Positions 3,288 to 23,258 of a stretch of DNA of 26,496 bases are shown here, in pieces; within the stretch, counting starts at the first letter, position 1, and the number at the start of each line of letters is the position of its first letter. This stretch comes from Armatimonadia bacterium. GTDB taxonomy: Bacteria; Armatimonadota; Zipacnadia; Zipacnadales; UBA11051. Under the pieces are notes generated by a model that saw only the letters and a program-made list of their open reading frames with translations, ran no database searches and was not told where the DNA came from. A program made the position numbers and the translations under genes. The stretch covers positions 1-26,496 of the forward strand of contig JBDKRC010000006.1 of the NCBI GenBank assembly GCA_039683575.1. Direction: 5' to 3'.

Positions 3288-3352
3288 TCTCCGAGGCCGC
3301 AAGTCTGAGGTTGACAGAGTGGGGGAACGCCCCGTTTTCAGGAGGAGTATCT

Positions 3353-5276: not shown

Positions 5277-6342
5277 AGAGTTTGCCATACCGTCTGAATT
5301 GGCTGGCCAGCGCCTCGACAAGGTCGTCATCGCCCTCGCCCCCGACCTCACCCGCAGCGCTGCCCAGAGGCTGCTCAAAGACGGTCTGGTGCTGCTCGAC
5401 GGCGCCCCCGCCCGGGCCTCCGACAAGCCCGCCGCCGGGCAGACTCTCGTCATCTGCCCCGCCATCCCCGAGCCACTCGACCTCAAGGCCGAAGACATCC
5501 CGCTCGACGTGGTCTACGAAGATGACGACGTGCTGGTGGTCAACAAGCCCCCGGACATGGTCGTCCACCCCGCTAAGGGCCACCAGGACGGCACCCTCGT
5601 CAACGCGCTGCTCTCCCACTGCCGCCTCAGCACGGCCGGCGAGGATATCCGGCCCGGCATCGTCCACCGTCTCGACCAGCATACCTCCGGCCTGCTCCTG
5701 ATCGCCAAGCACGACCAGTCCCACGTCGCCCTCAGCCGCCAGGTGGAGGCCCACGAGGCCCGTCGCGTCTACGAGGCCCTCGTCTGGGGTCACCCGCAGC
5801 CCCCCAGCGGCACCGTCCGCACAGGCTTCGGCCGCCATCCCCACCACCGCACGATGATGGCGGTCATGGAAGAGGGCCGCGGCCGCGAGGCAATCACCCA
5901 CTACCGCACCATGGAAGCCTACGAGGTAGTCTGGCAGCCCTCCGACTGTAGGGCGGGGGCTCGTACCCCGCCAGCCGTTATCGCCGACCAACTAGACGGC
6001 GGGGTGCAAGCCCCCGCCCTACAATCCGGCCGCCCGCGCAAGCGCCAGGCCGCCCTCATCGAGTGCGTCCTCGAAACCGGCCGCACCCACCAGATCCGCG
6101 TCCATCTCGCTCACCTCGGCTGCCCGCTCATCGGCGATCCAGTGTATGGAGACGCCGTCCGCGACCAGGCTGGCCCGCCGGAACTCGACGCCCTGGTTGC
6201 CGCGCTGCCCGGTCAGGCCCTGCACGCGCTCCAGCTAACCTTCCGCCACCCGCGCACGAACGAGGAGATCACCGTCCGTGCCGCAGAGCCCCCGGCCTTC
6301 GCCAATCTCAAGGCCTTCCTGCACTCCTCGCGCCGCCCCTAA
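5254..6342 (+). CDS. rluD: RluA/RluD-family pseudouridine synthase with S4 domain; carries an in-frame REPIN
   Basis: RLDK (S4), VNKPPDMVVHP, HRLDQHTSG (catalytic Asp), LETGRTHQIRVH, IGDPVYG, QALHA; GGAGG RBS. Confidence 0.9.
   Translation: MAPAPGAREFAIPSELAGQRLDKVVIALAPDLTRSAAQRLLKDGLVLLDGAPARASDKPAAGQTLVICPAIPEPLDLKAEDIPLDVVYEDDDVLVVNKPPDMVVHPAKGHQDGTLVNALLSHCRLSTAGEDIRPGIVHRLDQHTSGLLLIAKHDQSHVALSRQVEAHEARRVYEALVWGHPQPPSGTVRTGFGRHPHHRTMMAVMEEGRGREAITHYRTMEAYEVVWQPSDCRAGARTPPAVIADQLDGGVQAPALQSGRPRKRQAALIECVLETGRTHQIRVHLAHLGCPLIGDPVYGDAVRDQAGPPELDALVAALPGQALHALQLTFRHPRTNEEITVRAAEPPAFANLKAFLHSSRRP
5947..6023. repeat. 77-bp REPIN (inverted pair of class-B REPs) inside the rluD coding sequence
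   Basis: TGTAGGGCGGGGGCTCGTACCCCGCC, 25-nt spacer, GGCGGGGTGCAAGCCCCCGCCCTACA. The two arms match at 23/25 positions as an inverted repeat. Confidence 0.9.
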
Positions 6343-6379
6343 CCTCTTCCGCGTTCCCGCCTCACCCCTCCCCCCACTT

Positions 6380-6408
6380 TTGACTTGCCCTCCCCCTCTT
6401 GTTATAAT
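6380..6408 (+). promoter_or_regulatory. Near-consensus sigma70 promoter with extended -10 for the lipid A operon
   Basis: TTGACT (6380-6385), 17-bp spacer, TATAAT (6403-6408), with TG at 6400-6401. Confidence 0.85.
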
Positions 6409-6464
6409 CACCAAACTCACCCCATGTGGGTATGCACGCCGGCGGCGGTTGAGCTGGAAACGGT

Positions 6465-6494
6465 AAGCGGCATCGGTTGATGCCGCTTTACTTT
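6465..6494 (+). terminator. Hairpin in the fabZ leader (terminator of the upstream operon, or attenuator)
   Basis: AAGCGGCATC-GGTT-GATGCCGCTT perfect 10-bp stem, followed by TACTTT. Confidence 0.5.
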
Positions 6495-6526
6495 GTGATT
6501 CCGGGCGACACAGGAGGCCTTCTCAG

Positions 6527-6964
6527 ATGTCTATGGATATTAAGGGGATCATGAACATACTGCCGCACCGGTACCCGTTCCTGCTCGTAGACCGGATTCT
6601 TGAGCTCGAGCCCGGCGTGCGGGCGGTTGGCCTTAAGAACGTAACCGCCAACGAGCCGCAGTTTACCGGCCACTGGCCCGAGAATCCCGTCATGCCCGGC
6701 GTGCTCATGCTCGAGGCCATGGCCCAGGTCGGCGGCATCTTCCTGCTCTCCGAGGCCGAAACCGCCGGCAAGACCGCTTTCTTCGCCGGCATGGACGCCA
6801 TCAAGTTCCGCCGCCAGGTCGGCCCTGGCGACCAGCTGACGATCACAGCCGAGCTTATTCGCCGCAAGGGCGGCATTGGGAAAGTTGCCGTTGTCGCCAA
6901 AGTGGGCGACGAGGTAGCAGTTGAGGGTGAATTCATGTTTGCGCTGGTAGACAACGGGCGTTAG
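6527..6964 (+). CDS. fabZ: 3-hydroxyacyl-ACP dehydratase
   Basis: LPHRYPFLLVDR, GHWPENPVMPGVLMLEAMAQ; CAGGAGG RBS. Confidence 0.97.
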   Translation: MSMDIKGIMNILPHRYPFLLVDRILELEPGVRAVGLKNVTANEPQFTGHWPENPVMPGVLMLEAMAQVGGIFLLSEAETAGKTAFFAGMDAIKFRRQVGPGDQLTITAELIRRKGGIGKVAVVAKVGDEVAVEGEFMFALVDNGR

Positions 6965-7028
6965 CTCCCGTCTCACCGGCCCTCTGACCACGCCGGATAT
7001 CCGCATTGTCGCTTCAGGAGGAGCCGCT

Positions 7029-7817
7029 ATGGCCATTCATCCGACTGCTATTGTCGAACCGGGGGCTCAGCTAGGGGTAGACGTCGAAATCCTGCCCTAC
7101 ACCATCATCGAGCACGGCGCGGTCATTGGCGACCGCTGCGTCATCGGGCCCAACGCCGTGGTCCGGCGCTGGACCACCATGGGTGCCGACTGCCTCATCT
7201 CCACCGGCGCAGTCCTCGGCGAGCCCCCCCAGGATCGCAAGTACAGCGGCGAGATGACCTTCCTCAAGCTGGGCGACGGCAACCAGATCCGCGAATACGT
7301 GACGCTCCACCGGGCCAGCGGCGAGGGCAACAGCACCTTGCTTGGCGACAACAACATGATCATGGCCTACAGCCACGCCGGTCATAATGTGCATATTGGC
7401 AGCAACTGCTCGATCGCCAATGGTGTGCAGCTTGCCGGCTACGCTGTGATTGAAGACTACGTCAACCTCGGCGGCATGTCCGGCTTCCACCAGTTCGTCG
7501 TCGTGGGTACGATGGCCATGGTCGGCGCCATGTCCCGCATCAACCGCGATGTCCCGCCCTACTCGATTGTAGAGGGCATTCCTGCTGAGGTTCGCGGCCT
7601 CAATGTCATTGGTATTGAGCGCCGCGGCGTCAGCGCCGAGAGCCGCGCCGCCCTGCGCAAGGCCTTCCGCCTGCTCTTCCGCTCCGAGCACAATATTTCC
7701 GACGCCCTCCGTCAGGTTGCCGAGGAAGTGGAAGACGGCGCGGAACTCAAGTATCTGTGCGACTTCGTCCAGCGCACGCATGCCGGTTCCATGGGGCGCC
7801 AGCTCAGCCATCGCTGA
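7029..7817 (+). CDS. lpxA: UDP-N-acetylglucosamine acyltransferase
   Basis: IHPTAIV hexapeptide repeats, PQDRKY, IREYVTLHR, FHQF, GLNVIG; follows fabZ. Confidence 0.95.
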   Translation: MAIHPTAIVEPGAQLGVDVEILPYTIIEHGAVIGDRCVIGPNAVVRRWTTMGADCLISTGAVLGEPPQDRKYSGEMTFLKLGDGNQIREYVTLHRASGEGNSTLLGDNNMIMAYSHAGHNVHIGSNCSIANGVQLAGYAVIEDYVNLGGMSGFHQFVVVGTMAMVGAMSRINRDVPPYSIVEGIPAEVRGLNVIGIERRGVSAESRAALRKAFRLLFRSEHNISDALRQVAEEVEDGAELKYLCDFVQRTHAGSMGRQLSHR

Positions 7818-7843
7818 GTGCGGCAGGGGATCAGCCTTTGACA

Positions 7844-7891
7844 GTAAGGCAGGCGGCTCGCCTGCCCGCGTGGGCGAGCGACCCGCGCTAC
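7844..7891. repeat. Degenerate inverted REP pair between lpxA and lpxB
   Basis: GTAAGGCAGGCGGCTCGCCTGCC, then GGGCGAGCGACCCGCGCTAC (GTAGCGCGGGTCGCTCGCCC on the minus strand). Confidence 0.6.
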
Positions 7892-7910
7892 CGATACCAG
7901 TCGTCAACCC

Positions 7911-9056
7911 ATGAAATCACCTGAAATCTTCTTCGTTGTCGGCGAGCCCTCCGGCGATCTGCATTCCGCGCTGCTCGCCGGGGAACTGCTGAAACGCGGC
8001 AGCTTCCGCCTCACCGGGGCCGGCGGCGACAAGATGCGCCAGGCTGGCGTGGTCACGGATTTCGACAGTGGCGGCTGGGGCGCTATTGGCGTCCCCGAGG
8101 CGCTGCGCAAGATCCCGGGCCTGTATCTCGCCAAGCTGCGCCTCCTCCGCTTGCTGCGTGAGCGCCGGCCTGCCCTGCTCGTCCTGGTGGACTGCGGCGC
8201 CTTCAACGTCCGTCTCGCCCGCGCCGTTCGCCAGTTCCCGTGGCACCAGCCGATCATGTACTACTTTCCGCCCTCGTCGTGGGACCAAAGCGAGCGCGAC
8301 CGTTCGCCCCTCGCGGCGATCACGGATGTTGTGGCCACGCCTTTTCCGTGGTCGGAGACGCTGCTGCGCAAAGACGGTATCAACGCCCACTTCATCGGCC
8401 ATCCGGTAGTGGACCGCATCCAGCCTGTGCAGGACAAGCCCCAATTCCGGCGGGAGTTGGGCCTTCCCGAGGCCGAACACTACGTCGGCCTGCTGCCCGG
8501 CAGTCGCAAGGTTGAGCGCACGCTACTCGGCCCGCAGATGCTCGAAGCCGCCCGTCGCCTCATTGCGACCGGCCAGTACCACTTCCTGTGGTCCTCGCCG
8601 CCCGCGAAACAGGCCGGTGCCGACCACCTGCCTGCCGACTTGCAGGACCACATCACTGTCATCGGCGAAAGTGCGAGTATCTTCCGCGCGTCCGATCTGG
8701 TCCTGACCTCCTTCGGGACCGCAACCCTCGAAGCAGCGGCGGCTCTGACCCCGATGCTGACCATGTACCGCGGTACGCTTGCGATGAGACTGCAGTACCG
8801 CCTGATGAGCTTTTCCACCAAGTACTACGCCATGCCCAACATCATCGCCCAGCGCGAGCTCGTGCCGGAGCTGATTCAGGACGAAGCCTCCGGCCCCGCG
8901 CTGGCCAGCCGCATAGCCGAACTCTTCGCCGAGCCTGAGCGCCTGGCGGAGATCACCGAGGGCCTGCGCGACGTTCGGGCGCAACTCGGCCCCCCCGGTG
9001 CTGCAGGCCGGGCCGCCGACCTGGTGGTGGCTGCCGTATCTGAAAGGACTTATTGA
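7911..9056 (+). CDS. lpxB: Lipid-A-disaccharide synthase
   Basis: GEPSGDLH, FIGHP, LLPGSR, GTATLE, PNII, PELIQ. Confidence 0.93.
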   Translation: MKSPEIFFVVGEPSGDLHSALLAGELLKRGSFRLTGAGGDKMRQAGVVTDFDSGGWGAIGVPEALRKIPGLYLAKLRLLRLLRERRPALLVLVDCGAFNVRLARAVRQFPWHQPIMYYFPPSSWDQSERDRSPLAAITDVVATPFPWSETLLRKDGINAHFIGHPVVDRIQPVQDKPQFRRELGLPEAEHYVGLLPGSRKVERTLLGPQMLEAARRLIATGQYHFLWSSPPAKQAGADHLPADLQDHITVIGESASIFRASDLVLTSFGTATLEAAAALTPMLTMYRGTLAMRLQYRLMSFSTKYYAMPNIIAQRELVPELIQDEASGPALASRIAELFAEPERLAEITEGLRDVRAQLGPPGAAGRAADLVVAAVSERTY

Positions 9057-10873
9057 TGCGCTCGCTCTTCAAGCTGCGCTATTACGCCCGGGAACTGACC
9101 CCGCTGATTCTCGTTGCCCTGCTGGTCATGGGCATCACCGCCGCGCTCAACGTCGGCTCCTTCACGAACACGCAGGGCGTTTTCGAGAAGGCCTTCGAAC
9201 GCCTTGCCAGCAATGACCATGCCCAGCAGACGGCCGCGATGCAGGAGCTCCTCCGTCGTGCGCTGATCCTCCTCGTCACGATCTGCGGCGCCGCCATCAG
9301 CAACTGTATCGCTCTGTACATGGGCGACTACATCGGCCAGCGCACCCTCGTCAAGCTCCGCGAAGCCATCTTCTCCCACCTGCAGACCCTCTCGATGGCC
9401 TTCTTCGAGCGCAAGCGGGCCGGAGAGCTGATCTCGCGCGTGAATAATGACACCGTCGTGCTGCAGCGCGCCCTCGGCACTGACCTGTTCAAGGTCGTCG
9501 TCGCCCCGCTGACCGTCATGGCGCTGATCGTGCAGATGGTCCGCATGTCCTGGACCCTGGCTCTGGCTCTCGGTGTCGTGATCCCGCTGGTCCTTGGCAT
9601 CACCTCCCTGATGGGGCGCTACACCCGCCGTTACGCCCTGCGCACCCAGGAGAAGATTGCCGATCTCACCTCGACCACCCAGGAAAGCTTCGCGACCATG
9701 CGGGTCATCAAGACCTTCGGTCTTGAGCCGCAGATCCAGAAGCGCTATGGTTCCGAGATCAGGGGAGTATTCGGGGCCGAGATGAAGACCGCCCGCGCCA
9801 AAGCCCTGGCCTACGCGCCCGTCTTCGGCCTCATCGGCGTTGCCACCTGTGCAACCCTCGTCCTCGGCGGCTACGAGATCATGCACGGCCGCTTTACCCC
9901 CGCCGCCCTGATGACATTCCTGCTCATGCTCGAGGGCGCTGCCGCCCAGCTGAACAGCATCTCGCGCCTCTACCTGCAGTTACAGAACGCCGAGGCAGCC
10001 GCAGAGCGAACCCTGCAGGTCATGGCCGAGGAGTCGGACGTCAAGGATGCGCCTGACGCCATCGAATTGGACCACGTGGACGGCGGAATCACCTTCGACC
10101 ACGTCTCCTTCGCCTACGACGGCAAGCACCCCGTCCTGCATGACTTCTCACTGGACATCAAGCCCGGCGAAGTCGTTGCCCTCGCCGGTCCCAGTGGCGG
10201 CGGCAAGAGCACTGTCGCCAACCTCGTCCCGCGCCTGTATGACGTGCAGGAGGGGCGGGTGCTGATCGACGGCCGGGACGTGCGTGAGGTCAAACAGCGC
10301 TCCCTGAGCCGCTTCATGGGCATGGTCCCCCAGGAGACCATCCTGTTTGGCACCACCATTCGCGACAACATCGGCTTTGGCCGTGAAGGAGCCACTGACG
10401 ACGAGATCATCGCGGCGGCCAAGGCGGCCAACGCGCATGACTTCATCATGGACCTGCCAGAAGGCTACGACACGCAGGCCGGCGAGCGCGGCGGGCGCCT
10501 CTCCGGTGGCCAGAAGCAACGCGTCGCCATCGCCCGCGCCTTCCTGCGCAACCCGCGGGTTCTCATCCTCGATGAAGCCACCTCGGCGCTTGACAATGAG
10601 AGCGAAAAAGCCATCCACTCGGCCCTCAAAACCCTCCTTCAGGGCCGCACGGCCCTCATCATCGCTCACCGCTTGTCCACCATTCAGGACGCCGACCGTA
10701 TCGTGGTGATGGCTGACGGCCGCATCGTCGAGCAGGGCCCGCATGAGGAACTCCTCAAGCACGACGGTCTCTACCGGCGCCTGTACGAATCCGCTGAACT
10801 CGTGGAACAGCACCAGCCTGAAACTCCCGGTCTTGAGGCTGCAACCGAGACCTTCGGGGATACCGATGACTAA
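9056..10873 (+). CDS. msbA: MsbA-like ABC exporter (fused TMD-NBD), probable lipid A flippase
   Basis: N-terminal TMD, GPSGGGKST, LSGGQKQR, ILDEATS, IAHRLST. Located between lpxB and waaA; TGATG overlap. Confidence 0.8.
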   Translation: MRSLFKLRYYARELTPLILVALLVMGITAALNVGSFTNTQGVFEKAFERLASNDHAQQTAAMQELLRRALILLVTICGAAISNCIALYMGDYIGQRTLVKLREAIFSHLQTLSMAFFERKRAGELISRVNNDTVVLQRALGTDLFKVVVAPLTVMALIVQMVRMSWTLALALGVVIPLVLGITSLMGRYTRRYALRTQEKIADLTSTTQESFATMRVIKTFGLEPQIQKRYGSEIRGVFGAEMKTARAKALAYAPVFGLIGVATCATLVLGGYEIMHGRFTPAALMTFLLMLEGAAAQLNSISRLYLQLQNAEAAAERTLQVMAEESDVKDAPDAIELDHVDGGITFDHVSFAYDGKHPVLHDFSLDIKPGEVVALAGPSGGGKSTVANLVPRLYDVQEGRVLIDGRDVREVKQRSLSRFMGMVPQETILFGTTIRDNIGFGREGATDDEIIAAAKAANAHDFIMDLPEGYDTQAGERGGRLSGGQKQRVAIARAFLRNPRVLILDEATSALDNESEKAIHSALKTLLQGRTALIIAHRLSTIQDADRIVVMADGRIVEQGPHEELLKHDGLYRRLYESAELVEQHQPETPGLEAATETFGDTDD

Positions 10874-12308
10874 CTCTGCAAGCAATCAGGACGGCGGGCG
10901 CGGCTGGTCCGCCGGCTACATAATCTACAACGTCTTCCTGGCGCTGCTCTTCCCGCTGCTGCTGCTGTACCTCGGCTGGCGCCTGCTGCGTGGCAAGTCC
11001 CGCCAGGGCCTCAGAGAGCGCCTCGGCTGGCTGCCGGAGAGCTTCGACCGTTTCAGCACCTACGAGGACCCGGTGATCTGGATTCACGCCGCCTCGGTCG
11101 GCGAGGTCAACGCCGTCGCCCCGGTGCTCCGCGAGCTTCGGCTGCGCCTGCCTCTGGCGCGCTTCATACTCTCGGTCATCACCCCCACCGGCCGCGCCGT
11201 CGCCGAGAAGCGTGACCTCGGCGTCGATGCCATCATGTACTTCCCGTTCGACTTGCCGATGATCGTCGGCAATGTCATGCGGCGTCTCAATCCCGCCATG
11301 TTCGTGATGGTGGAGACCGAGCTATGGCCCAATGTCCTCGCGATGGCCAAGCAGCGGGGCGCCAAGACCGTAGTCGTCAACGGCCGCATCTCCGATCGCG
11401 CCTACCCCAAGACCAAGGCTCTCTGGCCCATCTACCGCTGGATGATGAGCAACGTTGACCTCGTACTGGCCCAGTCAGACCTTGATGCCGACCGCTTCCG
11501 CTTCCTCGGTGCCGCGGCGGACAAGGTCATAGTCTCCGGCAACTCCAAGTTCGACGAGATTCCTCGTGCCCTTCTCCCCGCGGAGGCCGCCAAATGGCGC
11601 CAGGAGTTCGGCTTTGCCGAAGATGACGAAGTCCTCCTCGCCGGCAGCACCCACGAAGGGGAAGAGGACCTCATCCTCTCCGTCTTTGACCATCTCAGAT
11701 TCTCCCATGAAAACCTGCAACTGATCATCGCCCCGCGCCATCCCGAGCGCGGGGAGCGCGTGCACGGTCTCGTACAGCAGCACGGCTACGACGTCTACCG
11801 CCGCAGCCACGTCCTCGCCGCGCGAGCCGCTGGCGAGGAAGTAGCGCCGCCCACCGCCGGCCCTGCCAGGCGCGTCGCCATCATTGACACCGTCGGCGAG
11901 CTCGCCTCACTATATGGTTGCGCCGATCTCGTGATCGTGGGCGGCAGCCTGGTTCGTGGCCTCGCGGGGCACAACGTCCTGGAGCCCATCGCGCAGGGCA
12001 AAATGACCCTTTTCGGCCCGTACATGGCCGACCATCGCGATATCAGCGCCATCGCCGTCCGCGAGGGCTGCGGTGTGCAGGTCCACAATATCCATGAACT
12101 GCGCGACGAGTGCGCCCGCCTGCTCAGCCTCCCCGAGGCTCGCGCCAGCGCTGCCGAGCGCGGACAGGCCATGCTCGAAAAGTACGCCGGAGCCTCCGCC
12201 CGCTACGCCGAGGCCGTGGAGCAACTGCTGCACAGCGATGGCGAGCCCGAAGCGCCCAGGCAGGCGGAAACAGCCGCCGAAGAGACTCCCTCCAGCGATG
12301 AGGCCTGA
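10866..12308 (+). CDS. waaA: 3-deoxy-D-manno-octulosonic acid (Kdo) transferase
   Basis: WIHAASVGE, ETELWPN, NGRISDR, GNSKFD, AGSTHEGEE, APRHPER, DTVGEL, GHNVLEP. Start placed at ATG 10866. Confidence 0.93.
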   Translation: MTNSASNQDGGRGWSAGYIIYNVFLALLFPLLLLYLGWRLLRGKSRQGLRERLGWLPESFDRFSTYEDPVIWIHAASVGEVNAVAPVLRELRLRLPLARFILSVITPTGRAVAEKRDLGVDAIMYFPFDLPMIVGNVMRRLNPAMFVMVETELWPNVLAMAKQRGAKTVVVNGRISDRAYPKTKALWPIYRWMMSNVDLVLAQSDLDADRFRFLGAAADKVIVSGNSKFDEIPRALLPAEAAKWRQEFGFAEDDEVLLAGSTHEGEEDLILSVFDHLRFSHENLQLIIAPRHPERGERVHGLVQQHGYDVYRRSHVLAARAAGEEVAPPTAGPARRVAIIDTVGELASLYGCADLVIVGGSLVRGLAGHNVLEPIAQGKMTLFGPYMADHRDISAIAVREGCGVQVHNIHELRDECARLLSLPEARASAAERGQAMLEKYAGASARYAEAVEQLLHSDGEPEAPRQAETAAEETPSSDEA

Positions 12309-12309
12309 C

Positions 12310-14336: not shown

Positions 14337-14339
14337 CTA

Positions 14340-15836
14340 ATGCCCGTAAGACTGGCGCTGAGGATACTTGCCCTCTCAAAACCGGGGCTATCTTGTGGGA
14401 GCGGTCTCCAGACCGCGACCATCGGGCCGCGACTGCTCACAGTCGCACGCAGAGCCCTCCCACAGGTTCTGACGCAGCTTCTGTTGATCGTGCTGCTCGG
14501 AAGCCTCGCTGTGGCCGGCGAACTCGGCCCCTACGAGCCCGGTCGTGGCTGCTACATCGGCGCCTACATCGAGCTCGACAACAACACTGCGGGGGAAATC
14601 GGCGCTTTCGAGCAGCTCACCACCAAAAAGCACGCCACCTACTTCAAGTACGTCGGCTACGGCCAGCCCTTCCCCTACAAGTGGGTCAAGGAGCTTCACG
14701 CCCAGGGAGCCCTGCCGCACATCGCCTGGGAACCCAACGAGGGCCTCGGCCCGGTCCGCGACGATGACTACCTCCACGGCTGGGCCCAGGCCGCTGCCCG
14801 CACCGGCAAGCCCATCTTCCTCCGCTACGCCTCCGAGATGAACGGCAACTGGATGGCCTACTCCGGCGATCCCGACCTCTACATCGCCAAGTGGCGCCTC
14901 GTGTACAACATCATGCACGAGGAAGCCCCCAACGTCATCATGATCTGGTGCCCGTACGCCACGCCCAAGGCCACGATCCCGATGTACTATCCCGGCGACG
15001 AATATGTGGACTGGGTTGGCGTCAACCTCTACAGCGTCTACCGCGCCGATGGCGACCCCTCCAAGCCCCCGAGCGACGACCCGCGCGCCCTCCTCAAGCA
15101 CGTCTACGATCTCTATTCCGACCGCAAGCCCATCGCCGTCTGCGAGTATGCGGCCACCCACTACTGCGTCGCCACCAAAGAGCAGGTGGTGGACTTCTGT
15201 CTCGACAACATGACCAAGCTCTACACGGCCCTGCCCGCCCAGTTCCCCCGAGTGCGCATGATCAACTGGTTCTCGGTCGATACCACCCGCAATAACCTCG
15301 CCAACAACAACTACAGCGTCACCGACAACGCCCAGGTGCTCCAGGCCTACCAAAAGCTCATCAGCGGCGACTACTTCCTCTCCCAGGTGCCGGAGGAGAC
15401 CCTGATCGCCGCCCGCCCGCAGCAGCCAACTGAGCCCCTGACGCCCGTTGGCCCGACCGAACCCGTGCGCCCTCGGCAGACTGACGTGGCAGCAGGCCCG
15501 CCGCCGCCAACCAGCCTCCCCCTCGCCAGCACCAAACTCGGCGCCGCGCCCGCCAGCGGTATCACCCTCGTCGTTCAGGGCTCCTCTCCCGGTGCCCTGT
15601 CCGGTCAGGTGCTGGTAACTGCTGACGTCGGCAAGCAAGTCGAAGGCGCCGAATCGGTCGAATTCCACCTCGACGGCCGCTTTGTCGCCATCACCAACGT
15701 CGCGCCGTTCCGCTTTACGCTCAACGCCGATCGCCTTTCTCCGGGCGAGCACGTCCTCAAAGTGATTGTCACAACCTCCGGGGAGCGCCCCATAGCCACC
15801 GCCGAAGCCGCGGTAGTGGTCCCCCAGCCGGGGTAG
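14340..15836 (+). CDS. Secreted glycoside hydrolase family 26 protein with Pro-rich linker and C-terminal Ig-like domain
   Basis: Hydrophobic signal segment, IAWEP, FLRYASEMNGNW, YYPGDEYVDWVG, AVCEY; C-terminal VEFHLDG...APF...GEHVLKV. Confidence 0.8.
   Translation: MPVRLALRILALSKPGLSCGSGLQTATIGPRLLTVARRALPQVLTQLLLIVLLGSLAVAGELGPYEPGRGCYIGAYIELDNNTAGEIGAFEQLTTKKHATYFKYVGYGQPFPYKWVKELHAQGALPHIAWEPNEGLGPVRDDDYLHGWAQAAARTGKPIFLRYASEMNGNWMAYSGDPDLYIAKWRLVYNIMHEEAPNVIMIWCPYATPKATIPMYYPGDEYVDWVGVNLYSVYRADGDPSKPPSDDPRALLKHVYDLYSDRKPIAVCEYAATHYCVATKEQVVDFCLDNMTKLYTALPAQFPRVRMINWFSVDTTRNNLANNNYSVTDNAQVLQAYQKLISGDYFLSQVPEETLIAARPQQPTEPLTPVGPTEPVRPRQTDVAAGPPPPTSLPLASTKLGAAPASGITLVVQGSSPGALSGQVLVTADVGKQVEGAESVEFHLDGRFVAITNVAPFRFTLNADRLSPGEHVLKVIVTTSGERPIATAEAAVVVPQPG
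14394..14418 (+). repeat. REP-like palindrome inside the GH26 N-terminal coding region
   Basis: TGTGGGAGCGGTCTCCAGACCGCGA; stem GCGGTC/GACCGC. Resembles the REPs at 24106 and 24258. Confidence 0.65.
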
Positions 15837-15855
15837 CCAGGGCTGCCAACAGCCC
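15833..15855 (+). repeat. GTAG-headed palindrome whose TAG is the GH26 stop codon
   Basis: GTAGCCAGGGCTG-CCAA-CAGCCC. Confidence 0.55.
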
Positions 15856-15905
15856 GTTCCCGCGTGAGGCCGACACTCCGTGGCGGCCAGCCGCCACCAA
15901 TCCTC

Positions 15906-16250
15906 CGCGTAGCGCGGACGTCTCGCCCGCCGATGGCTGTAGGGCGTAGCGACGCCTCGCAGGGGGCTCGTACCCCGCCGGCTGTAATCTACGCCCCTCA
16001 CGCACTCAGCCAACTCGCGTAGTGCGGGCGTCTCGCCCGCCAATGGCCGCAGGGCGTAGCAACGCCCGGGGCGCAGGGGGCTCGTACTCCGCCCGCTGTA
16101 GTCCACGACCCTCACGCACTCAGCCAACTCGCGTAGTGCGGGCGTCTCGCCCGCCAATGGCTGTAGGGCAGGGGGCTCGTTCCCCGCCGGCTGTAATCTA
16201 CGATCCTCACCCACTCAGCCAACTCGCGTAGTGCGGGCGTCTCGCCCGCC
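15906..16250 (+). repeat. BIME-like tandem array: three full units (110, 114, 95 bp) plus a partial fourth; each full unit is REP-A + REP-B + conserved linker
   Basis: Units start with CGCGTAG at 15906, 16016, 16130 and 16225. The linker CTCAC(G/C)CACTCAGCCAACT is conserved. Confidence 0.92.
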
Positions 16251-16279
16251 TCCGAAGTCTTCGCCCCCACATTTCTCCC

Positions 16280-16308
16280 GTGACACCGCGCCCAACTTCG
16301 TATATAAT
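16280..16308 (+). promoter_or_regulatory. Sigma70-type promoter for the malK-like gene
   Basis: GTGACA (16280-16285), 17-bp spacer, TATAAT (16303-16308). Confidence 0.75.
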
Positions 16309-16316
16309 GTTCTACC

Positions 16317-16342
16317 GTAGCGGCCCGTGTGCATACGGGCCG
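16317..16342 (+). repeat. GTAG-headed hairpin at the predicted transcript 5' end
   Basis: GTAG-CGGCCCGT-GTGCAT-ACGGGCCG. Confidence 0.5.
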
Positions 16343-16456
16343 TCTTTGGTGGCTTGTGGATGAGCGCGGTAGGCCGATGGGTTACCCCCGTCAGTGGCAT
16401 GTCGTACCCCCGTCTGCCGCGAAGCCTGTTTCATTCTCCCGGAGCGTGTTGCATAG

Positions 16457-17563
16457 ATGGCGCAAGTTAGACTGGTCAATCTGACCAAGCGATTCCCTGG
16501 CGTGATTGCTGTCAACAGTGTCAACCTGGACATCCAGGACAAAGAGTTCCTCGTCCTCGTCGGCCCCTCCGGGTGCGGCAAGACCACCTGTCTGCGCATG
16601 ATCGCCGGCCTCGAAGAGTCCTCCGACGGTGAGATCTGGATCGGCGACCGCCTGGTCAACGACGTCTCGCCCAAGGACCGCGACATTGCCATGGTCTTCC
16701 AGAACTACGCCCTCTACCCGCACATGAGCGTGTACGAGAACATGGCGTTCGGCCTCAAGCTCCGCAAAGTGCCCCGGGAAGACATCGCCAAGCGCGTGGC
16801 CGAGGCTGCCGACATGCTCGGCATCCAGGGCCTGCTCAAGCGCCGCCCCAAGGAACTCTCTGGCGGCCAGCGCCAGCGCGTCGCTGTAGGCCGCGCCATC
16901 GTCCGCGAGCCCGCCGTCTTCCTCATGGACGAGCCGCTGTCCAACCTCGATGCCAAGCTCCGGATCCAGACCCGCGCCGAGCTCATCAAGCTCCATCGCC
17001 GTCTGGGCATCACCACCGTCTATGTCACCCACGACCAGGTCGAAGCCATGACCATGGGCGACCGCATCGTGGTCATGAAAGACGGTCTCGTGCAGCAGTG
17101 CGACACGCCGCTGCAGATCTACCGCTTCCCCGCCAACCGCTTCGTCGCCGGCTTCATCGGCAGCCCGCCCATGAACTTCGTCAATGCCTCCGTCGAGTCC
17201 GAAGGCGGCAAGACCTACATCAAGGCCAACGGCTTCCGCACCAAGGTCGATGACGAGCGCGCCGCTAAGCTCGCGGGTTACGTCGGCAAGGAAGTCATCT
17301 TCGGCATCCGCCCCAGCGATATCTTCGACAAGGCCCTGTCACCCAGCGTCACCCCGTCGCCCGACAACCTCGTCACCGTCGAAGTCGAAGTCATCGAGCC
17401 CATGGGCGCTGAGTGTGTGCTCTACGTCAAGTCCGGCGAAGATGACATGGTCATCAACGTCGACAGCGCGACTGTCGCCAAAGAGCGCGAGAACCTGGAA
17501 GTCGTCTTCGACATGGCTAAGAGCCACGTCTTCGACAAAGAGACCGAGATCACGATCATCTAG
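16457..17563 (+). CDS. Carbohydrate ABC transporter ATPase (MalK/UgpC/MsmX family)
   Basis: GPSGCGKTT, VFQNYALYPHM, LSGGQRQR, MDEPLSNLDAKLR, THDQVEAMTM, GFIGSPPMN, C-terminal TOBE-like region. Confidence 0.95.
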   Translation: MAQVRLVNLTKRFPGVIAVNSVNLDIQDKEFLVLVGPSGCGKTTCLRMIAGLEESSDGEIWIGDRLVNDVSPKDRDIAMVFQNYALYPHMSVYENMAFGLKLRKVPREDIAKRVAEAADMLGIQGLLKRRPKELSGGQRQRVAVGRAIVREPAVFLMDEPLSNLDAKLRIQTRAELIKLHRRLGITTVYVTHDQVEAMTMGDRIVVMKDGLVQQCDTPLQIYRFPANRFVAGFIGSPPMNFVNASVESEGGKTYIKANGFRTKVDDERAAKLAGYVGKEVIFGIRPSDIFDKALSPSVTPSPDNLVTVEVEVIEPMGAECVLYVKSGEDDMVINVDSATVAKERENLEVVFDMAKSHVFDKETEITII

Positions 17564-17617
17564 TCCCCGGCCTCAAACCAGGTCCCGGCCTCAAACCGGG
17601 TCATGGCCTCAAACCAG
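17563..17617 (+). repeat. Three 18-bp tandem repeats directly after the stop codon
   Basis: Core GGCCTCAAACC at 17569, 17587 and 17605, followed by the degenerate REP GTGGCGCCGGCGGCTCGCCCGCG. Confidence 0.85.
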
Positions 17618-17707
17618 TGGCGCCGGCGGCTCGCCCGCGGTCGCTACCCAGAGGAGAGGCACTGACCCCGACCTTGGTCGCCCCATCTTCACAACTGTGC
17701 TATACTG

Positions 17708-17740
17708 AAAGCCTTCGCGCCCAAAGCGCGGAGGCTTTTT
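17708..17740 (+). terminator. Intrinsic terminator
   Basis: AAAGCCTTCGCGC-CCAAA-GCGCGGAGGCTTTTT. Confidence 0.8.
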
Positions 17741-17803
17741 GGCAGGTGCGGACGTCTACTATGAACAGACTCTGCTGTTCTCGTAGTTGCGTGGAGGAAT
17801 GAT

Positions 17804-18673
17804 TTGGCTCGTCACGACCACGATGCAACCTTCTGGGATCACCTCGAGGTTTTCCGCGGTGTCCTGATTCGCTCTGTAATCTACATCGCCGCCGGTGCCA
17901 CCGCTGGCTGGATGTACCGCCAGCGCATTTTCGAGATTCTTCGCTACCCTGCCGAGGAAGCCGTCCGGCGCGCCGGCATCCACGACTTTGCCTTCCGCAT
18001 CTTCGACCCGGCCGGTGGCATCGTCCTCATGATGCAAGCCTCGCTGCTCCTGGGCGTGCTGCTTTCCGCCCCCTTGTGGCTCACCGAACTCGCCTTCTTC
18101 ATCGCCCCCGGCCTCAAGCCCGGTGAACGCCGCCTCGTCTTCGCACTCCTGCCGCTGGCCATAGTCCTCTTCCTAAGCGGCGCTGGCTTCTGCTATTACA
18201 TCTCGCCCACCGTCTTTGGCTTCCTCTTCACCTTCACCCTCAGCCTCGGCGTCACCCCCGAGGTCACCCTTGTCTCCTACTTGTACTTCCTCATGCGCCT
18301 CGTCCTGGTTTTCGGCCTCGTCTTCGAGATGCCCCTGGTCGTCATGCTGCTCGTGCAGTTCGGCGTGGTGAGCAGCCGCGCCCTCCTGCGCGCCTGGCGC
18401 ATCGCTGTCGTCATCATCTTCATCTTCGCCGCCGTCGCCACGCCCACTACCGACCCCTTCACCATGCTCACCATGGCCCTGCCCATGACCCTCCTGTACT
18501 TCCTCAGCATCGGCCTTGGCAGGCTCGTGGAGCGCCGCAAAATCGCCCACGCCTTCGATGAAGAGGACCCCTACGGCCTCCACACCGAACCTGACGATGG
18601 CCTGCCAGAACTCCCTTCCGGCCAACCGCCGGAGGACAGCGGCACCGCGCCGGCTGAGACCAATGAACCCTGA
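17804..18673 (+). CDS. tatC: Twin-arginine translocase subunit TatC
   Basis: FWDHLEVFR, FIAPGLKPGERR, FGLVFEMP, AAVATPTTDP; about six TM segments; TTG start after GGAGG. Confidence 0.92.
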   Translation: MARHDHDATFWDHLEVFRGVLIRSVIYIAAGATAGWMYRQRIFEILRYPAEEAVRRAGIHDFAFRIFDPAGGIVLMMQASLLLGVLLSAPLWLTELAFFIAPGLKPGERRLVFALLPLAIVLFLSGAGFCYYISPTVFGFLFTFTLSLGVTPEVTLVSYLYFLMRLVLVFGLVFEMPLVVMLLVQFGVVSSRALLRAWRIAVVIIFIFAAVATPTTDPFTMLTMALPMTLLYFLSIGLGRLVERRKIAHAFDEEDPYGLHTEPDDGLPELPSGQPPEDSGTAPAETNEP

Positions 18674-21143
18674 CCGCCTGCTGGGGGAAATCCGCTCCCG
18701 TAAGGACTACGCCGGGCAGATCCTTCACGTCCGCGAAAGCCCCGCCCGCGCGGCGACTTTCGCCGACACCCCGCCCGAACTTCGGGACACCGTCCGCGCC
18801 CTCCTCGACCGCCTCGGCATCAGCCGCCTCTACAGCCACCAGGCCGAGGCCGTGGCCGCCGTCCTGGCCGGTGACCACGTCTGCACAGTCTCCGGCACCG
18901 CCAGCGGTAAAACCCTCACCTACCTCCTGCCTATCGTCAACGCCCTGCACGAGCGCGGTACCAGCCGGGCGCTGCTCATGTACCCCACCAAGGCCCTCGC
19001 CCAGGACCAGTTGCGCAAGCTAACTGACTTCGGCGCGGGCACCCTCCGCCAGGAGAGCACAGCCGACGAAGGCCTCGCCTTCACCGCCGAGACGTATGAC
19101 GGAGATACGCCCTCCTATCGCCGTCGCCTCATCAAGCGCGACGCCCAGGTCGTCCTGACCAACCCCGACATGTTGCACGTCGGCATCCTGCCCTACCATC
19201 ACACCTGGTCCGAGTTCTTCCGCAACCTCAAGTACGTCGTCCTCGACGAGGTTCACACCTACCGCGGCATCTTCGGCTCCCACACCGCCAACGTCATCCG
19301 CCGCCTGCGCCGCGTCGCTGCCCACTATGGCGCGGATCCCAAGTTCATCTGCTGCTCGGCCACCATCGGCAACCCCGACGAACTCGCCGCCCGCCTCACC
19401 GGGCTCCCCATGCGCGTAGTACGCGACGATGGCGCCCCGCGCGGCCGCAAGCTCATTGTCTTCTGGAACCCGCCAGTCGTCGAGAAGCTCACCGGGAAGC
19501 GCCGCAGTGGTAACCTCGAAGCCGCCGACCTCCTCGCCACCCTCGTCCGCCGCCAGATCCGCAATATCACCTTCACCCTCGCCCGCAGCCAGGCCGAGCT
19601 AATCCTGCGTTACGCCCGGGAGCATCTCGAAGAAGACCACCTTGACGACAAGATCATGGCCTACCGCGGCGGCTATCTCCCCGCCGAACGCCGCGAGATC
19701 GAGCGCCGCCTTTTCACTGGCGAACTCCTTGGAGTCGCGGCCACCACCGCCCTTGAGCTCGGCGTGGACATCGGCGGCCTTGAAGCCGTCATCATGGCCG
19801 GCTACCCCGGCACCATCTCCTCCGCCTGGCAGCAAATGGGCCGCGCCGGACGGGGCCAGGAGGACTCCCTGGCCGTCCTCGTGGGCCTAAGCGGCGCTCT
19901 GCACCAGTACGTCGTCAACAACCCTGAGTACCTGCTCGACGCCGCCAGCGAGCGCGCCGTCATCGATCCCGAGAACCCCTTCATCCTCGCCGCCCACCTG
20001 CTCTGTGCCGCCTACGAGCTACCCATCGACGACGACGAAGGCTCCCTCTTCGGCGACAAGACCCCCCAGGTCCTCGACATCCTCTCCGAGGGCGGCTACA
20101 TCGCCCGCCGCACCCGCTGGTACTGGCTAGACCCTGAGATCTACCCCGCCCGCGAGGTCAGCATCCGCTCCGCCTCCGGCACAGCGTATGACATCGTTAC
20201 CGAAAAGGGCGACCTCCTCGGCACCATGGACGGCTCGTCGGCCCAGCGCATGATCCACAAGGGTGCGATCTACCTCCACGGCGGCCAGACCTACCTCGTG
20301 CAGGAACTCGACCTCGAAACCAAAATCGCCCGCGTCAAACCCGCGGATGTCAACTACTACACCCAGCCACTGGTCAACTCCGAAGTCCGCCAGGTGGAGC
20401 CAGGCGAGAGGAAGCAGCTCTTCCCCGACCTCCCGCCGCCTGCACCCGCACCCGCAGAACCCGCGCCTTCCGAAGGTGAGCCGCCGGCCCCTGAGCCGCC
20501 TCAGGACGGTGTCCTCCTCGAGCTAGGGCCGGTAAGCGTCCGGACCCGCGTCGTAGGCTTCCAGAAGGTCCGCCAGACCAGCGAGAAGACCATCGGCAGC
20601 GAGGAACTCGACCTCCCGACCGAAGAGTACGAAACCATGGGCCTCTGGCTCCTCCCTTCTCTCTCTGCGCTTCAAGCAGCGCCCGCCTCCGAGGCCTCAG
20701 GCTGTAGGGCGGGGGCTCGTACCCCGCCGGCCGTTGTCACCGACCACTCAAGCGGCGTGGCACAAGCCCCCGCTCTGCAGCAAACAATCGACATCCCCGG
20801 CTCCCTCCACGCCATCGAGCACGTCCTCATCATGCTCCTCCCCCTCTTCGTGGCCTGCGACGCCCACGACGTCGGCGGCATCTCCACTGCCCTCCATCCC
20901 GACGTGGGTGGTCCCGCAATCTGCCTCTACGACGGCTATCCCGGCGGCGTCGGCCTCGCCGAGGCGGCCTTCGACCGCGTCCCCGAACTTATGGCCGCCG
21001 CGGCCCAGACCATCCGCAATTGCCTCTGCGAAGCCGGCTGTCCCGCCTGCGTCCAGCAATCCACCTGCGGCAGCATGAACCGCCCCCTCGACAAATGCGG
21101 CGCCCTCCTCCTGCTCGACAGTTGGCTCCAGCGCCTTGCATAG
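18663..21143 (+). CDS. DEAD/DEAH-box helicase with C-terminal DUF1998 (MrfA/YprA/SftH/Hrq1 family); carries an in-frame REPIN
   Basis: LYSHQ, TASGKT, PTKALAQDQ, TNPDMLH, DEVH, SAT, QQMGRAGR, LHAIEH, YDGYPGGVG, CLCEAGCPAC. Start placed at ATG 18663. Confidence 0.92.
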   Translation: MNPDRLLGEIRSRKDYAGQILHVRESPARAATFADTPPELRDTVRALLDRLGISRLYSHQAEAVAAVLAGDHVCTVSGTASGKTLTYLLPIVNALHERGTSRALLMYPTKALAQDQLRKLTDFGAGTLRQESTADEGLAFTAETYDGDTPSYRRRLIKRDAQVVLTNPDMLHVGILPYHHTWSEFFRNLKYVVLDEVHTYRGIFGSHTANVIRRLRRVAAHYGADPKFICCSATIGNPDELAARLTGLPMRVVRDDGAPRGRKLIVFWNPPVVEKLTGKRRSGNLEAADLLATLVRRQIRNITFTLARSQAELILRYAREHLEEDHLDDKIMAYRGGYLPAERREIERRLFTGELLGVAATTALELGVDIGGLEAVIMAGYPGTISSAWQQMGRAGRGQEDSLAVLVGLSGALHQYVVNNPEYLLDAASERAVIDPENPFILAAHLLCAAYELPIDDDEGSLFGDKTPQVLDILSEGGYIARRTRWYWLDPEIYPAREVSIRSASGTAYDIVTEKGDLLGTMDGSSAQRMIHKGAIYLHGGQTYLVQELDLETKIARVKPADVNYYTQPLVNSEVRQVEPGERKQLFPDLPPPAPAPAEPAPSEGEPPAPEPPQDGVLLELGPVSVRTRVVGFQKVRQTSEKTIGSEELDLPTEEYETMGLWLLPSLSALQAAPASEASGCRAGARTPPAVVTDHSSGVAQAPALQQTIDIPGSLHAIEHVLIMLLPLFVACDAHDVGGISTALHPDVGGPAICLYDGYPGGVGLAEAAFDRVPELMAAAAQTIRNCLCEAGCPACVQQSTCGSMNRPLDKCGALLLLDSWLQRLA
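20703..20779. repeat. 77-bp REPIN inside the helicase coding sequence
   Basis: Left arm identical to 5947-5972, same 25-nt spacer length; 64/77 nt identical to the rluD copy by manual alignment. Confidence 0.9.
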
Positions 21144-21367
21144 CACGGGCGTCTCCTCCCCCCTCTGCTGTAGGGCGGGGGCTCATACCCCGCCGGCCTA
21201 GCCCCCCTCCTGCTGTAGGGCGGGGCTTGGCGATGTCTGCATCGCAGCTCGTACCCCGCCGGCCGTTGTCACCGACCACTCAAGCGGCGTGGCACAAGCC
21301 CCCGCCCTACAGCAAACAATCGACATCCCCGGTCCCTCCTCCTCCTCGACAGTTGGCTCCAGCGCCT
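21140..21367 (+). repeat. REP cluster plus a rearranged duplicate of the helicase 3' end
   Basis: REP-B at 21170-21194; interrupted REPIN at 21215-21311. 21247-21332 matches 20715-20800 (84/86) and 21334-21367 matches 21103-21136 (33/34). Confidence 0.9.
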
Positions 21368-23206: not shown

Positions 23207-23222
23207 GGAATACTATCCTCGC

Positions 23223-23258
23223 GTAGTGCGGGCGTCCGCAGGGCAGGACGTACGCCCG
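23223..23258 (+). repeat. REP-A with its loop replaced by an internal hairpin
   Basis: GTAGTGCGGGCGT-CCGCAGGGCAGGACGT-ACGCCCG. Confidence 0.7.

What the first reader, a model, noticed from the sequence alone, without database searches (positions are those of the whole stretch)
5947..20779. The same 77-bp REPIN is inserted in frame in two unrelated housekeeping proteins and encodes a related 26-aa peptide in each
Seen: 5947-6023 (rluD) and 20703-20779 (helicase) have the same length, orientation and reading frame. Both read TGT-AGG, which avoids the TAG of GTAG. The peptides are CRAGARTPPAVIADQLDGGVQAPALQ and CRAGARTPPAVVTDHSSGVAQAPALQ (19/26 aa; 64/77 nt; spacers 17/25). Both ORFs remain intact with their catalytic motifs. 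In RluD the insert falls between AITHY and LETGRTHQ, normally a short turn. Known: REPs are overwhelmingly extragenic, and peptide-donating palindromes are described mainly for Rickettsia RPEs and a few similar elements. Inference: a GTAG/RAYT-type REPIN family acting as a mobile protein-loop donor. Two cases in 26 kb suggest many genome-wide. This is the best candidate for an undescribed system in the window.
Basis: partly seen in the sequence, partly recalled or inferred. Interest (0 to 1): 0.85.

Follow-up and report, generated by a model that had tools for sequence, protein, structure and literature searches.

The report
Mobile hairpin repeats translated inside genes
A small mobile DNA palindrome that normally sits between genes has landed in frame in two housekeeping genes here, and in about two dozen others in the genome, adding a floppy 26-residue loop; this is real, but this kind of insertion has been described before.

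Summary
Window 5947-6024 (RluD) and 20703-20780 (MrfA-type helicase) are two copies of one GTAG-tagged REP doublet (REPIN). Both are read in the TGT-AGG frame.

They are true insertions. All 11 RluD orthologs and all 9 helicase orthologs fetched from related genomes lack them, same-genus genomes included. In an AlphaFold model of RluD the only segment with pLDDT below 50 is the insert, at the tip of a beta-hairpin.

The family has 260 REP units in this genome. Of these, 39 lie inside about 27 predicted genes, among them PolA, MutS, ArgJ and FGGY kinases. None is in the TAG frame. A second REP family does the same in 22 genes.

No transposase (RAYT) flanked by this repeat was found in this assembly. 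One was found in a related genome of the same order.

"Undescribed" is not supported. Di Nocera et al. 2013 (PMC3733652) catalogued intragenic GTAG REP dimers encoding 20-30 aa, including in polymerase, helicase and pseudouridine synthase genes. Earlier notes of this scan report the same kind on other DNA. Verdict: a clean new member of a known kind.

One point deserves follow-up: the same protein loop holds REPINs of different families in sister species.

The parts
5947..6024 (+). REP doublet (REPIN) inserted in frame in RluD. It encodes CRAGARTPPAVIADQLDGGVQAPALQ (residues 232-257). Left REP 5948-5972 (+), right REP 5998-6022 (-).
   Evidence: Absent from 11 of 11 orthologs. The only segment of the AlphaFold model with pLDDT below 50.
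5254..6342 (+). Host gene: RluD-type 23S rRNA pseudouridine synthase (S4 + PseudoU_synth_2), with an intact frame.
   Evidence: E. coli RluD structures, E = 7e-57. Orthologs in 22 of 30 relatives.
20703..20780 (+). Second copy of the same REP doublet, in frame in the helicase. It encodes CRAGARTPPAVVTDHSSGVAQAPALQ (residues 730-755 of the 18516 frame). Left REP 20704-20728 (+), diverged right REP 20754-20778 (-).
   Evidence: Absent from 9 of 9 aligned orthologs.
18663..21143 (+). Host gene: MrfA/Hrq1-type DEAD-box helicase with a C-terminal Zn-binding domain. The likely start is ATG 18663 (the open frame begins at 18516).
   Evidence: Orthologs align from about residue 35-55 of the 18516 frame.
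21168..21312 (.). Intergenic composite copy of the same family, 25 nt behind the helicase stop. It has outer arms at 21170-21194 (+) and 21286-21310 (-), plus an extra, interrupted arm at 21210-21272.
15919..16254 (.). Intergenic cluster of REP units of this family (one interrupted) and of a second GTAG family (GCGTAGTGCGGGCGTC).
   Evidence: Contigs of related strains skip 15905-16225.

Best explanation
The two elements are copies of one family of GTAG-tagged repetitive palindromes (REPs). Each copy is an inverted doublet of REPs, i.e. a REPIN: a small non-autonomous mobile element of the kind moved by HUH-Y1 'RAYT' transposases. Copies land anywhere in the genome. Those that break a gene are lost. 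The few that land in a tolerant surface loop or linker, in a stop-free frame and with a net length divisible by three, persist and are translated as a Gly/Ala/Pro/Arg-rich disordered loop. RluD and the helicase each carry such a recent, lineage-specific passenger. Shown here: family membership, the in-frame state, empty sites in orthologs, the genome-wide pattern, and the loop location in the RluD model. Inferred: mobilisation by a RAYT, translation of the insert, and near-neutral effect on the proteins.
For: Family. There are 260 REP units (16-nt core, up to 1 mismatch) in the 6.23-Mb genome. The commonest element is an inverted pair of 75-78 nt, and CT-GTAG is conserved in at least 178 of 182 aligned copies.

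Depletion in genes. 177 units are intergenic, 39 inside genes, 5 overlap a gene end and 39 lie at contig edges. My own gene calls cover 87% of the genome.

Empty sites. RluD: 11 of 11 orthologs lack exactly the 26 residues, including 3 same-genus genomes at 59-73% identity. Helicase: 9 of 9 lack them. PolA: a 35-aa REP-derived insert is absent from 5 of 5.

Host genes are real. 19 of 24 further host ORFs have Pfam families at E <= 1e-5, including ArgJ, DNA_pol_A, MutS I-V, FGGY x2, GHMP kinase, squalene-hopene cyclase, beta-lactamase, GT2 x2, GH20 and sulfatase.

Frames. Of 17 in-gene heads, 14 read TGT-AGG, 3 read GTA-GGG and 0 read CTG-TAG. The 5 candidate genes that might have been split by a TAG-frame copy are all pairs of distinct complete genes.

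Structure. The RluD model has mean pLDDT 83.7. Its only segment below 50 is residues 231-256, at the tip of the hairpin formed by strands 211-227 and 262-275.

Transposase. In related genome G018 (265 units) a 181-aa RAYT is flanked on both sides by this REP.

Precedent. Di Nocera 2013 describes the same behaviour for GTAG REPs.
Against: No RAYT flanked by this repeat, and no ortholog of the G018 RAYT, was found in G000 or in the same-genus genomes G002 and G003 (best hit 35-37% identity to a RAYT that is flanked by another repeat family). The assembly breaks at these repeats (39-42 units at contig edges), so the gene may simply be unassembled.

Translation of the insert is not shown. The one RNA run laid gave contigs on part of the helicase gene (18166-18800) but none across either insert.

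Independent contigs bridge only the left RluD junction (5400-5999 in X2). None spans a whole element.

Core-to-core lengths of in-gene doublets are not multiples of three, so the true ends of the mobile unit are not defined.

Stop content does not explain why this family and one other are in genes about 18% of the time while five other REP families are at 10 of 387 units.

Gene calls come from my own crude codon-usage caller.
Confidence: 0.88

Rival explanations
1. The inserts are selected functional modules. In this reading the encoded loop, or the roughly -55 kcal/mol mRNA/DNA hairpin, was retained because it does something for the host, such as regulating translation or mRNA decay, or providing a shared binding peptide.
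For: Frame use is skewed: 14 CRAG to 3 VGRG heads, and 13 of 22 tails read APALQ, although both alternatives are stop-free. In-gene doublets keep hairpin stability like intergenic ones (median -64.9 vs -69.1 kcal/mol, Mann-Whitney p = 0.21). Several hosts are DNA-repair or replication proteins (MutS, PolA, two MrfA-type helicases), as Di Nocera 2013 also remarked.
Against: The hosts are unrelated in function. Close orthologs work without the insert. The peptide is predicted to be disordered. Older copies decay, as in the FGGY loop in G001-G003. The frame counts include paralogs and are small. Retained hairpins are equally expected for young neutral copies.
Confidence: 0.07
2. The element is removed before or during protein synthesis (intron-like, intein-like or translational bypass), so the proteins are really insert-free.
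For: The insert is a very stable hairpin and begins with a Cys codon. No RNA or peptide data cover it.
Against: If the element were removed, its frame would not matter. Yet 0 of 17 in-gene heads use the TAG frame, and no gene is split by a TAG-frame copy. Net insert lengths keep the frame. Decayed in-frame remnants persist in orthologs. At 26 aa the insert is far below intein size and lacks an intein C-terminal motif (from the sequence and general knowledge).
Confidence: 0.03
3. Assembly artefact: a repeat was wrongly stitched into two genes of a metagenome-assembled genome.
For: The genome is a fragmented assembly (352 contigs) that breaks at these repeats. No public contig spans a whole element.
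Against: Both flanks of each insert are colinear with orthologs to the codon. The two copies differ at 13 of 77 positions. A contig from run X2 crosses the left RluD junction. About 25 further genes here, and genes in two other assemblies of the genus, show the same in-frame pattern.
Confidence: 0.02

Closest known systems
Intragenic GTAG- and CGTC-tagged REPs (Di Nocera, De Gregorio & Rocco 2013, BMC Genomics 14:522, PMC3733652; passages read)
   Same: A GTAG head plus a short GC hairpin. High copy number and mostly intergenic. A minority lies wholly inside real genes. [quoted passage not shown] Hosts include DNA polymerase I, helicases and pseudouridine synthases. Different REPs occur at about the same site of one gene in sister species. 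TAG of the element sometimes serves as the stop codon of the upstream gene (seen here at C253 and C331).
   Different: A different consensus and a different lineage: an uncultured genome that earlier notes of this scan call Armatimonadia (not verified here). I could not compare with their family list, which is in Figure 1 and old .xls supplements that I did not see. Two families are active in genes side by side here (about 27 + 22 host genes). No cognate RAYT is in the assembly.
Rickettsia palindromic elements (RPE; Ogata et al. 2000 and later work, known to me from recall and from the citations in PMC3733652)
   Same: Palindromic repeats inserted in frame in functional housekeeping genes, read as surface peptides, and absent from orthologs.
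   Different: According to Di Nocera 2013, RPE-4 and RPE-6 are CGTC-tagged and RPE-1 is longer. The host there is an obligate intracellular alphaproteobacterium. There is no sequence relation to this GTAG element (not tested by alignment).
REPIN-RAYT systems (Bertels & Rainey 2011, PMC3116915; only the listing and abstract seen)
   Same: Inverted REP doublets with a spacer. Near-identical population of copies (201 of 260 units have the exact 16-mer). Each RAYT gene in this genome is flanked by its own REP family. Distribution is limited to one order and is patchy.
   Different: REPINs are described as extragenic with a single cognate RAYT per family. Here about 18% of non-edge units are inside genes, and no RAYT flanked by this family was found in three assemblies of the genus.
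Intragenic small mobile sequences / MITEs carrying open frames (Delihas 2008, PMC2229807; abstract seen)
   Same: Non-autonomous repeats found both between and within genes, contributing peptide segments.
   Different: MITEs have terminal inverted repeats of IS elements and use DDE transposases. This element is a REP hairpin doublet.

Membership tests
GTAG-tagged REP / REPIN | A short (20-40 nt) imperfect palindrome with a conserved terminal GTAG | tested here: met
   The 25-nt unit GTAG-GGCGGGG-GCTCGTA-CCCCGCC has GTAG invariant by construction of the search. The preceding CT is conserved in 178-180 of 182 copies.
GTAG-tagged REP / REPIN | High copy number, dispersed over the genome | tested here: met
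   260 units (up to 1 mismatch in 16 nt) on many contigs, with 0 hits to the reversed control pattern.
GTAG-tagged REP / REPIN | Two REPs in inverted orientation with a spacer (doublet), able to fold as one long hairpin | tested here: met
   65 inverted pairs with a modal length of 75-78 nt. 40 of 185 strict elements are '+-' doublets. MFE is -50 to -86 kcal/mol.
GTAG-tagged REP / REPIN | Predominantly extragenic | tested here: met
   177 of 221 non-edge units are intergenic, although 87% of the genome is called coding. 39 units are inside genes.
GTAG-tagged REP / REPIN | A cognate RAYT (HUH-Y1 transposase) gene flanked by the same REPs in the same genome | tested here: not met
   Eight Y1/RAYT-like genes are present in G000, each flanked by a different repeat family. 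tblastn with the G018 RAYT finds no ortholog. The feature is met in relative G018, where a RAYT at C28:46085-46627 is flanked by this REP on both sides. Orthologs of that RAYT occur only in G005, G006 and G007. The gene may be unassembled in G000.
GTAG-tagged REP / REPIN | Mobilised by the RAYT through single-stranded DNA cleavage at the CT next to the REP | not testable with these tools
   Only the conserved CT-GTAG junction is seen.
Intragenic REP dimers (sensu Di Nocera 2013) | The element lies wholly inside a real gene, keeps the frame and encodes about 20-30 aa | tested here: met
   26 aa in both window genes. Pfam domains lie on both sides of the insert. Orthologs lack it.
Rickettsia palindromic elements (RPE) | Membership of the RPE sequence families (CGTC-tagged RPE-4/6, or the longer RPE-1) | tested here: not met
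   The element is GTAG-tagged. The RPE tags are as stated in PMC3733652. No alignment to RPE sequences was made.
Intein / self-splicing element | Intein size of at least about 130 aa with splicing blocks, or intron structure or a homing endonuclease | tested here: not met
   26 aa and 78 nt. The frame is constrained as for translated sequence: 0 of 17 heads are in the TAG frame.

The most novel reading that the evidence does not exclude
Protein loops, once colonised, act as reusable landing pads for REPINs, and this family spreads without its own transposase. In one orthologous gene (G000 C243:84145-85626) the same loop holds a REPIN of this family in G000 and in G002 with different spacers. 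In G003 it holds a REPIN of a different (GGAG-headed) family, and in G001 it holds none. Two FGGY paralogs in G000 carry different REPINs in the same loop. This family is also the most abundant, near-identical repeat in three assemblies of the genus, none of which has an ortholog of the only RAYT found flanked by it. Together these observations would mean that insertion is targeted to pre-existing hairpins, and that mobilisation works in trans by a non-cognate RAYT or by a RAYT-independent route, rather than random insertion followed by purifying selection.
Probability: 0.2. Interest if true: 0.6.

Novelty: new member of a known kind. Interest (0 to 1): 0.37.

Why it matters
This is a large and clean natural data set on which protein sites tolerate a 26-residue insertion. 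Two REP families sit in about 50 genes of one genome, roughly 1% of my gene calls. Empty, filled and decayed sites are all available in sister species.

It shows that the REP-in-gene behaviour known from Rickettsia, Opitutus and proteobacteria also operates in an uncultured lineage.

There is a practical lesson for annotation. Recurrent peptides such as CRAGARTPP...GGVQAPALQ, AGYEPPPYS, RRGTSPRPTA, RSAGVSPAS and AGETPALRG in metagenomic proteins are repeat-derived. They can create false similarity between unrelated proteins, as seen in the cross-hits.

The repeated filling of the same loop and the missing cognate transposase are the only parts that go beyond the published picture.

Tried and rejected
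1. My first flank-coding classifier used a 14-mer with up to 2 mismatches and a hard score threshold. It missed both window cases and picked up chance matches, so I replaced it with a stricter core and a gene caller.

2. Passive-filter idea: that families with more stop-free frames are found in genes more often. The data do not support it. The family flanking the C237 RAYT has 4.3 of 6 frames open but 1 of 37 doublets in genes. The present family has 2.95 of 6 open and 9 of 42 in genes.

3. Length rule: core-to-core lengths of in-gene doublets are not multiples of three, so that measure says nothing about the true unit.

4. Target-site duplication or target motif from filled versus empty sites: the DNA of the closest orthologs is too diverged to tell.

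5. Public runs: only Logan contigs were available, and these break in the repeat. No contig spans either insert, the right junctions are not bridged, and the RNA run has no piece across an insert. This gives no verdict on expression and no further check of assembly beyond the left RluD junction.

6. The search for related loci in genome contigs returned only distant RluD homologs (38-47% identity, mostly Clostridia MAGs). It was of no use for taxonomy or for empty sites.

7. MutS: the insert lies in a linker that varies in length in all orthologs, so no clean empty site can be called there.

8. Five pairs of same-strand neighbouring genes around intergenic copies were tested as possible genes split by a TAG-frame copy. 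All are distinct complete genes.
Full report
OBSERVATION

Aligned without gaps they share 64 of 77 nt. The encoded peptides, CRAGARTPPAVIADQLDGGVQAPALQ and CRAGARTPPAVVTDHSSGVAQAPALQ, share 19 of 26 residues, and the spacers share 17 of 25 nt.

Each element consists of a 25-nt arm, GTAGGGCGGGGGCTCGTACCCCGCC, a spacer of about 25 nt, and the inverted arm. The arm occurs 5 times in the window at up to 3 mismatches, against 0 in 100 shuffles. The third site is an intergenic composite copy at 21168-21312, just behind the helicase stop.

As RNA the two elements fold at -59.5 and -54.4 kcal/mol (z = -7.1 and -5.6).

The host frames are intact. ORF 5254-6342 has S4 and PseudoU_synth_2 domains and matches E. 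coli RluD structures at E = 7e-57. ORF 18516/18663-21143 has DEAD, Helicase_C, WHD_HRQ1 and the MrfA Zn-binding domain.

The net insertion is 26 codons: window 5947-6024 and 20703-20780.

ARE THEY INSERTIONS?

Yes. With RluD as query, every ortholog in related genomes matched as two abutting pieces, with the query gap at residues 231-258. In a MAFFT alignment, 11 of 11 fetched orthologs lack exactly the 26 residues. Three of them come from same-genus genomes at 73, 70 and 59% identity.

For the helicase, 9 of 9 aligned orthologs lack about 30 residues at the site.

By sequence alignment, E. coli RluD has 5 residues where this protein has 45. Relatives already have a hairpin about 19 residues longer, and the element sits at its tip.

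An AlphaFold2 model built on the 12-sequence alignment has mean pLDDT 83.7 and pTM 0.76. Its only segment below pLDDT 50 is residues 231-256, between strands 211-227 and 262-275. The insert is therefore predicted to be a disordered loop on an otherwise confident fold.

THE FAMILY, GENOME-WIDE

The window is contig C6 of a 6.23-Mb assembly with 352 contigs and 63.5% GC. Earlier notes of this scan call the organism an uncultured Armatimonadia bacterium. I did not verify this.

The core CTGTAGGGCGGGGGCT occurs 260 times at up to 1 mismatch, 201 of them exact. It is the most frequent 16-mer in the genome.

I built a simple codon-usage gene caller: 970 training ORFs, GC3 of 80%, 4707 calls covering 87% of the genome. 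It is a crude tool, not a standard gene finder. With it, 177 units are intergenic, 39 lie inside genes (27 host genes), 5 overlap a gene end and 39 lie within 100 nt of a contig end (one search gives nearly the same split). The family is thus strongly depleted in coding sequence, but far from excluded.

The in-gene copies give recurrent peptides:
- CRAGARTPPAV..D...GGV[QR]APALQ in the commonest frame.
- AGYEPPPYS and RRGTSPRPTA in the other tail frames.
- SAVGPGLVPGR in the other head frame.

Of 24 further host ORFs, 19 have Pfam families at E <= 1e-5. These include ArgJ, DNA polymerase I, MutS (all five domains), two FGGY kinases, a GHMP kinase, squalene-hopene cyclase, a beta-lactamase-fold protein, two GT2, GH20, a sulfatase and a Ser/Thr kinase with a PQQ propeller. 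Five have none. By my reading, most inserts lie between or inside matched domain stretches.

The PolA insert (35 aa of REP tails) is absent from 5 of 5 orthologs.

FRAME EVIDENCE FOR TRANSLATION

Of the 17 in-gene heads that remained after dropping 4 units near gene ends, 14 read TGT-AGG, 3 read GTA-GGG and 0 read CTG-TAG. The tails read APALQ 13 times, PPPYS 5 times and SPRPT 4 times.

Detection inside an ORF already excludes the TAG frame. I therefore looked for genes cut in two by a TAG-frame copy. Five intergenic copies have close same-strand neighbours on both sides. Pfam shows all five pairs to be distinct complete genes: Wzy/TPR + dehydroquinase, HPPK + T2SSF, URO-D + SBP, SpoIIE + Fe-hydrogenase-like, and PurE + PurD.

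So there is no sign that frame is irrelevant, as it would be if the element were removed from the mRNA or the protein.

The 14:3 skew between two stop-free head frames is suggestive. It rests on small counts that include paralogs.

AGE AND TURNOVER

The RluD, helicase and PolA copies are specific to this genome among those compared.

Other copies are older or recurrent:
- The FGGY loop is filled with unalignable, decayed sequence in the three same-genus orthologs and is empty in the next genus. A second FGGY paralog of G000 carries another REPIN in the same loop.
- The MutS insert lies in a linker that varies in all orthologs. G002 and G003 carry further repeat-like in-frame insertions at two other MutS sites.
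- In the ortholog set of the G000 gene C243:84145-85626, the same loop holds a REPIN of this family in G000 and in G002 (different spacers). In G003 it holds a REPIN of a different, GGAG-headed family (71 copies in G003, 44 in G002, 0 in G001). In G001 it holds none.

In-gene doublets fold as stably as intergenic ones: median -64.9 vs -69.1 kcal/mol, Mann-Whitney p = 0.21, 13 vs 41 doublets.

TRANSPOSASE

G000 has seven Pfam Y1_Tnp matches plus one more found by phmmer. Two reach the NCBIfam cut-off for REP-associated tyrosine transposase.

Each of these genes is flanked by its own high-copy repeat family, i.e. they are REPtrons. None is flanked by the present family.

In G018, a genome of the same order but another family, with 265 units, a 181-aa RAYT is flanked on both sides by this REP. 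Orthologs of that RAYT were found only in G006 (56% identity), G005 and G007. None was found in G000, G002 or G003, although those hold 260, 128 and 147 units.

The gene may be unassembled, since the assembly breaks at these repeats, or it may be lost. I cannot tell which.

The exact 16-mer is multi-copy only within this order in a sample of 301 genomes of the phylum; 13 of 301 have any match.

OTHER FAMILIES

A second GTAG family (GCGTAGTGCGGGCGTC, 156 units) has 29 units in 22 genes. It gives the peptides RSAGVSPAS, AGETPALRG and GGRDARTTRG, including one in a paralogous MrfA-type helicase.

Five other families together have 10 of 387 non-edge units in genes. Stop-codon content does not explain this difference.

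READS

Only Logan contigs were available. One contig of run X2 crosses the left RluD junction (5400-5999). None spans a whole element, and no listed joint skips an insert. The single RNA run gave pieces on the helicase 5' part (18166-18800) but none on an insert.

This is weak support for the assembly and gives no evidence on expression of the insert.

WHAT IS KNOWN

Di Nocera, De Gregorio & Rocco 2013 (PMC3733652; I read the passages returned, not the figures or the .xls supplements) report the following:
- GTAG and CGTC REPs occur inside genes in several species, most in Opitutus terrae and Rickettsia conorii.
- Hosts include DNA polymerase I, UvrD/Rep, RNA helicases and tRNA pseudouridine synthases.
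- Different REPs sit at about the same site of recB in two Xanthomonas species.
- The TAG of the element often serves as a stop codon.

The Rickettsia RPEs are the classic case (cited there; otherwise recalled). For the REPIN-RAYT framework (Bertels & Rainey 2011) and for intragenic small mobile sequences (Delihas 2008) I saw only listings and abstracts.

Earlier notes of this scan report the same kind on other DNA at least eight times, each citing the same paper.

My two literature searches do not show that nothing has been published on this particular lineage.

VERDICT

The claim of an undescribed system is not supported. This is a new member, and a rich one, of a described kind.

The points that go beyond the published picture are:
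- re-use of the same loop by different REPIN families in sister species;
- the high in-gene share of two families out of eight;
- the absence of a cognate RAYT from three assemblies of the genus.

Each of these needs closed genomes and experiments before it can carry weight.

Noticed in passing
window 15919-16254: An intergenic cluster mixing units of this family and of a second GTAG family (GCGTAGTGCGGGCGTC). One unit of this family appears to be interrupted by other sequence (CTGTAGGGCG|...|GGGGGCTCGTACCCCGCC). Contigs of runs X2 and X3 skip 15905-16225, so related strains differ here.
   Followed up: partly
genome-wide; window copies at 3261-3289, 16014-16254, 23217-23237, 26368-26428: The second REP family (GCGTAGTGCGGGCGTC) has 156 units, 29 of them inside 22 predicted genes. 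They are read as RSAGVSPAS, AGETPALRG or GGRDARTTRG, including in a paralogous MrfA-type helicase (C182:4006-6516).
   Followed up: partly
window 20421-20507 (helicase residues 636-664 of the 18516 frame): A second insertion specific to this genome in the same helicase: a 29-residue proline-rich stretch, FPDLPPPAPAPAEPAPSEGEPPAPEPPQD, absent from 9 of 9 orthologs. Its origin was not examined.
   Followed up: no
G000 contigs C31, C51, C102, C168, C237, C296, C331, C338: Eight IS200/RAYT-like Y1 transposase genes, each flanked by its own high-copy repeat family (REPtrons). The family beside the C31 RAYT shares the head TG[G/T]AGGG and the spacer start GCCGTTATC with the family studied here.
   Followed up: partly
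L095 (G002), L097 (G003), MutS orthologs: MutS of G002 and G003 carries extra in-frame insertions at two other sites. In G003 the two inserts resemble each other (EGPNAQ.YRASGP...), suggesting yet another repeat family in genes.
   Followed up: no
window 3-127: The contig begins with sequence present in 13-30 copies in the genome (…GGGACATTTCTACTTTGCACAAGAGGGACATTACTACTTGG…). It is a different, AT-richer dispersed repeat of unknown nature.
   Followed up: no
window 24100-24275: Copies of the repeat family that flanks the C338 RAYT (CGCGGCTGGAAGCCGC...) lie in the intergenic region before the gene at 24386-25756.
   Followed up: no
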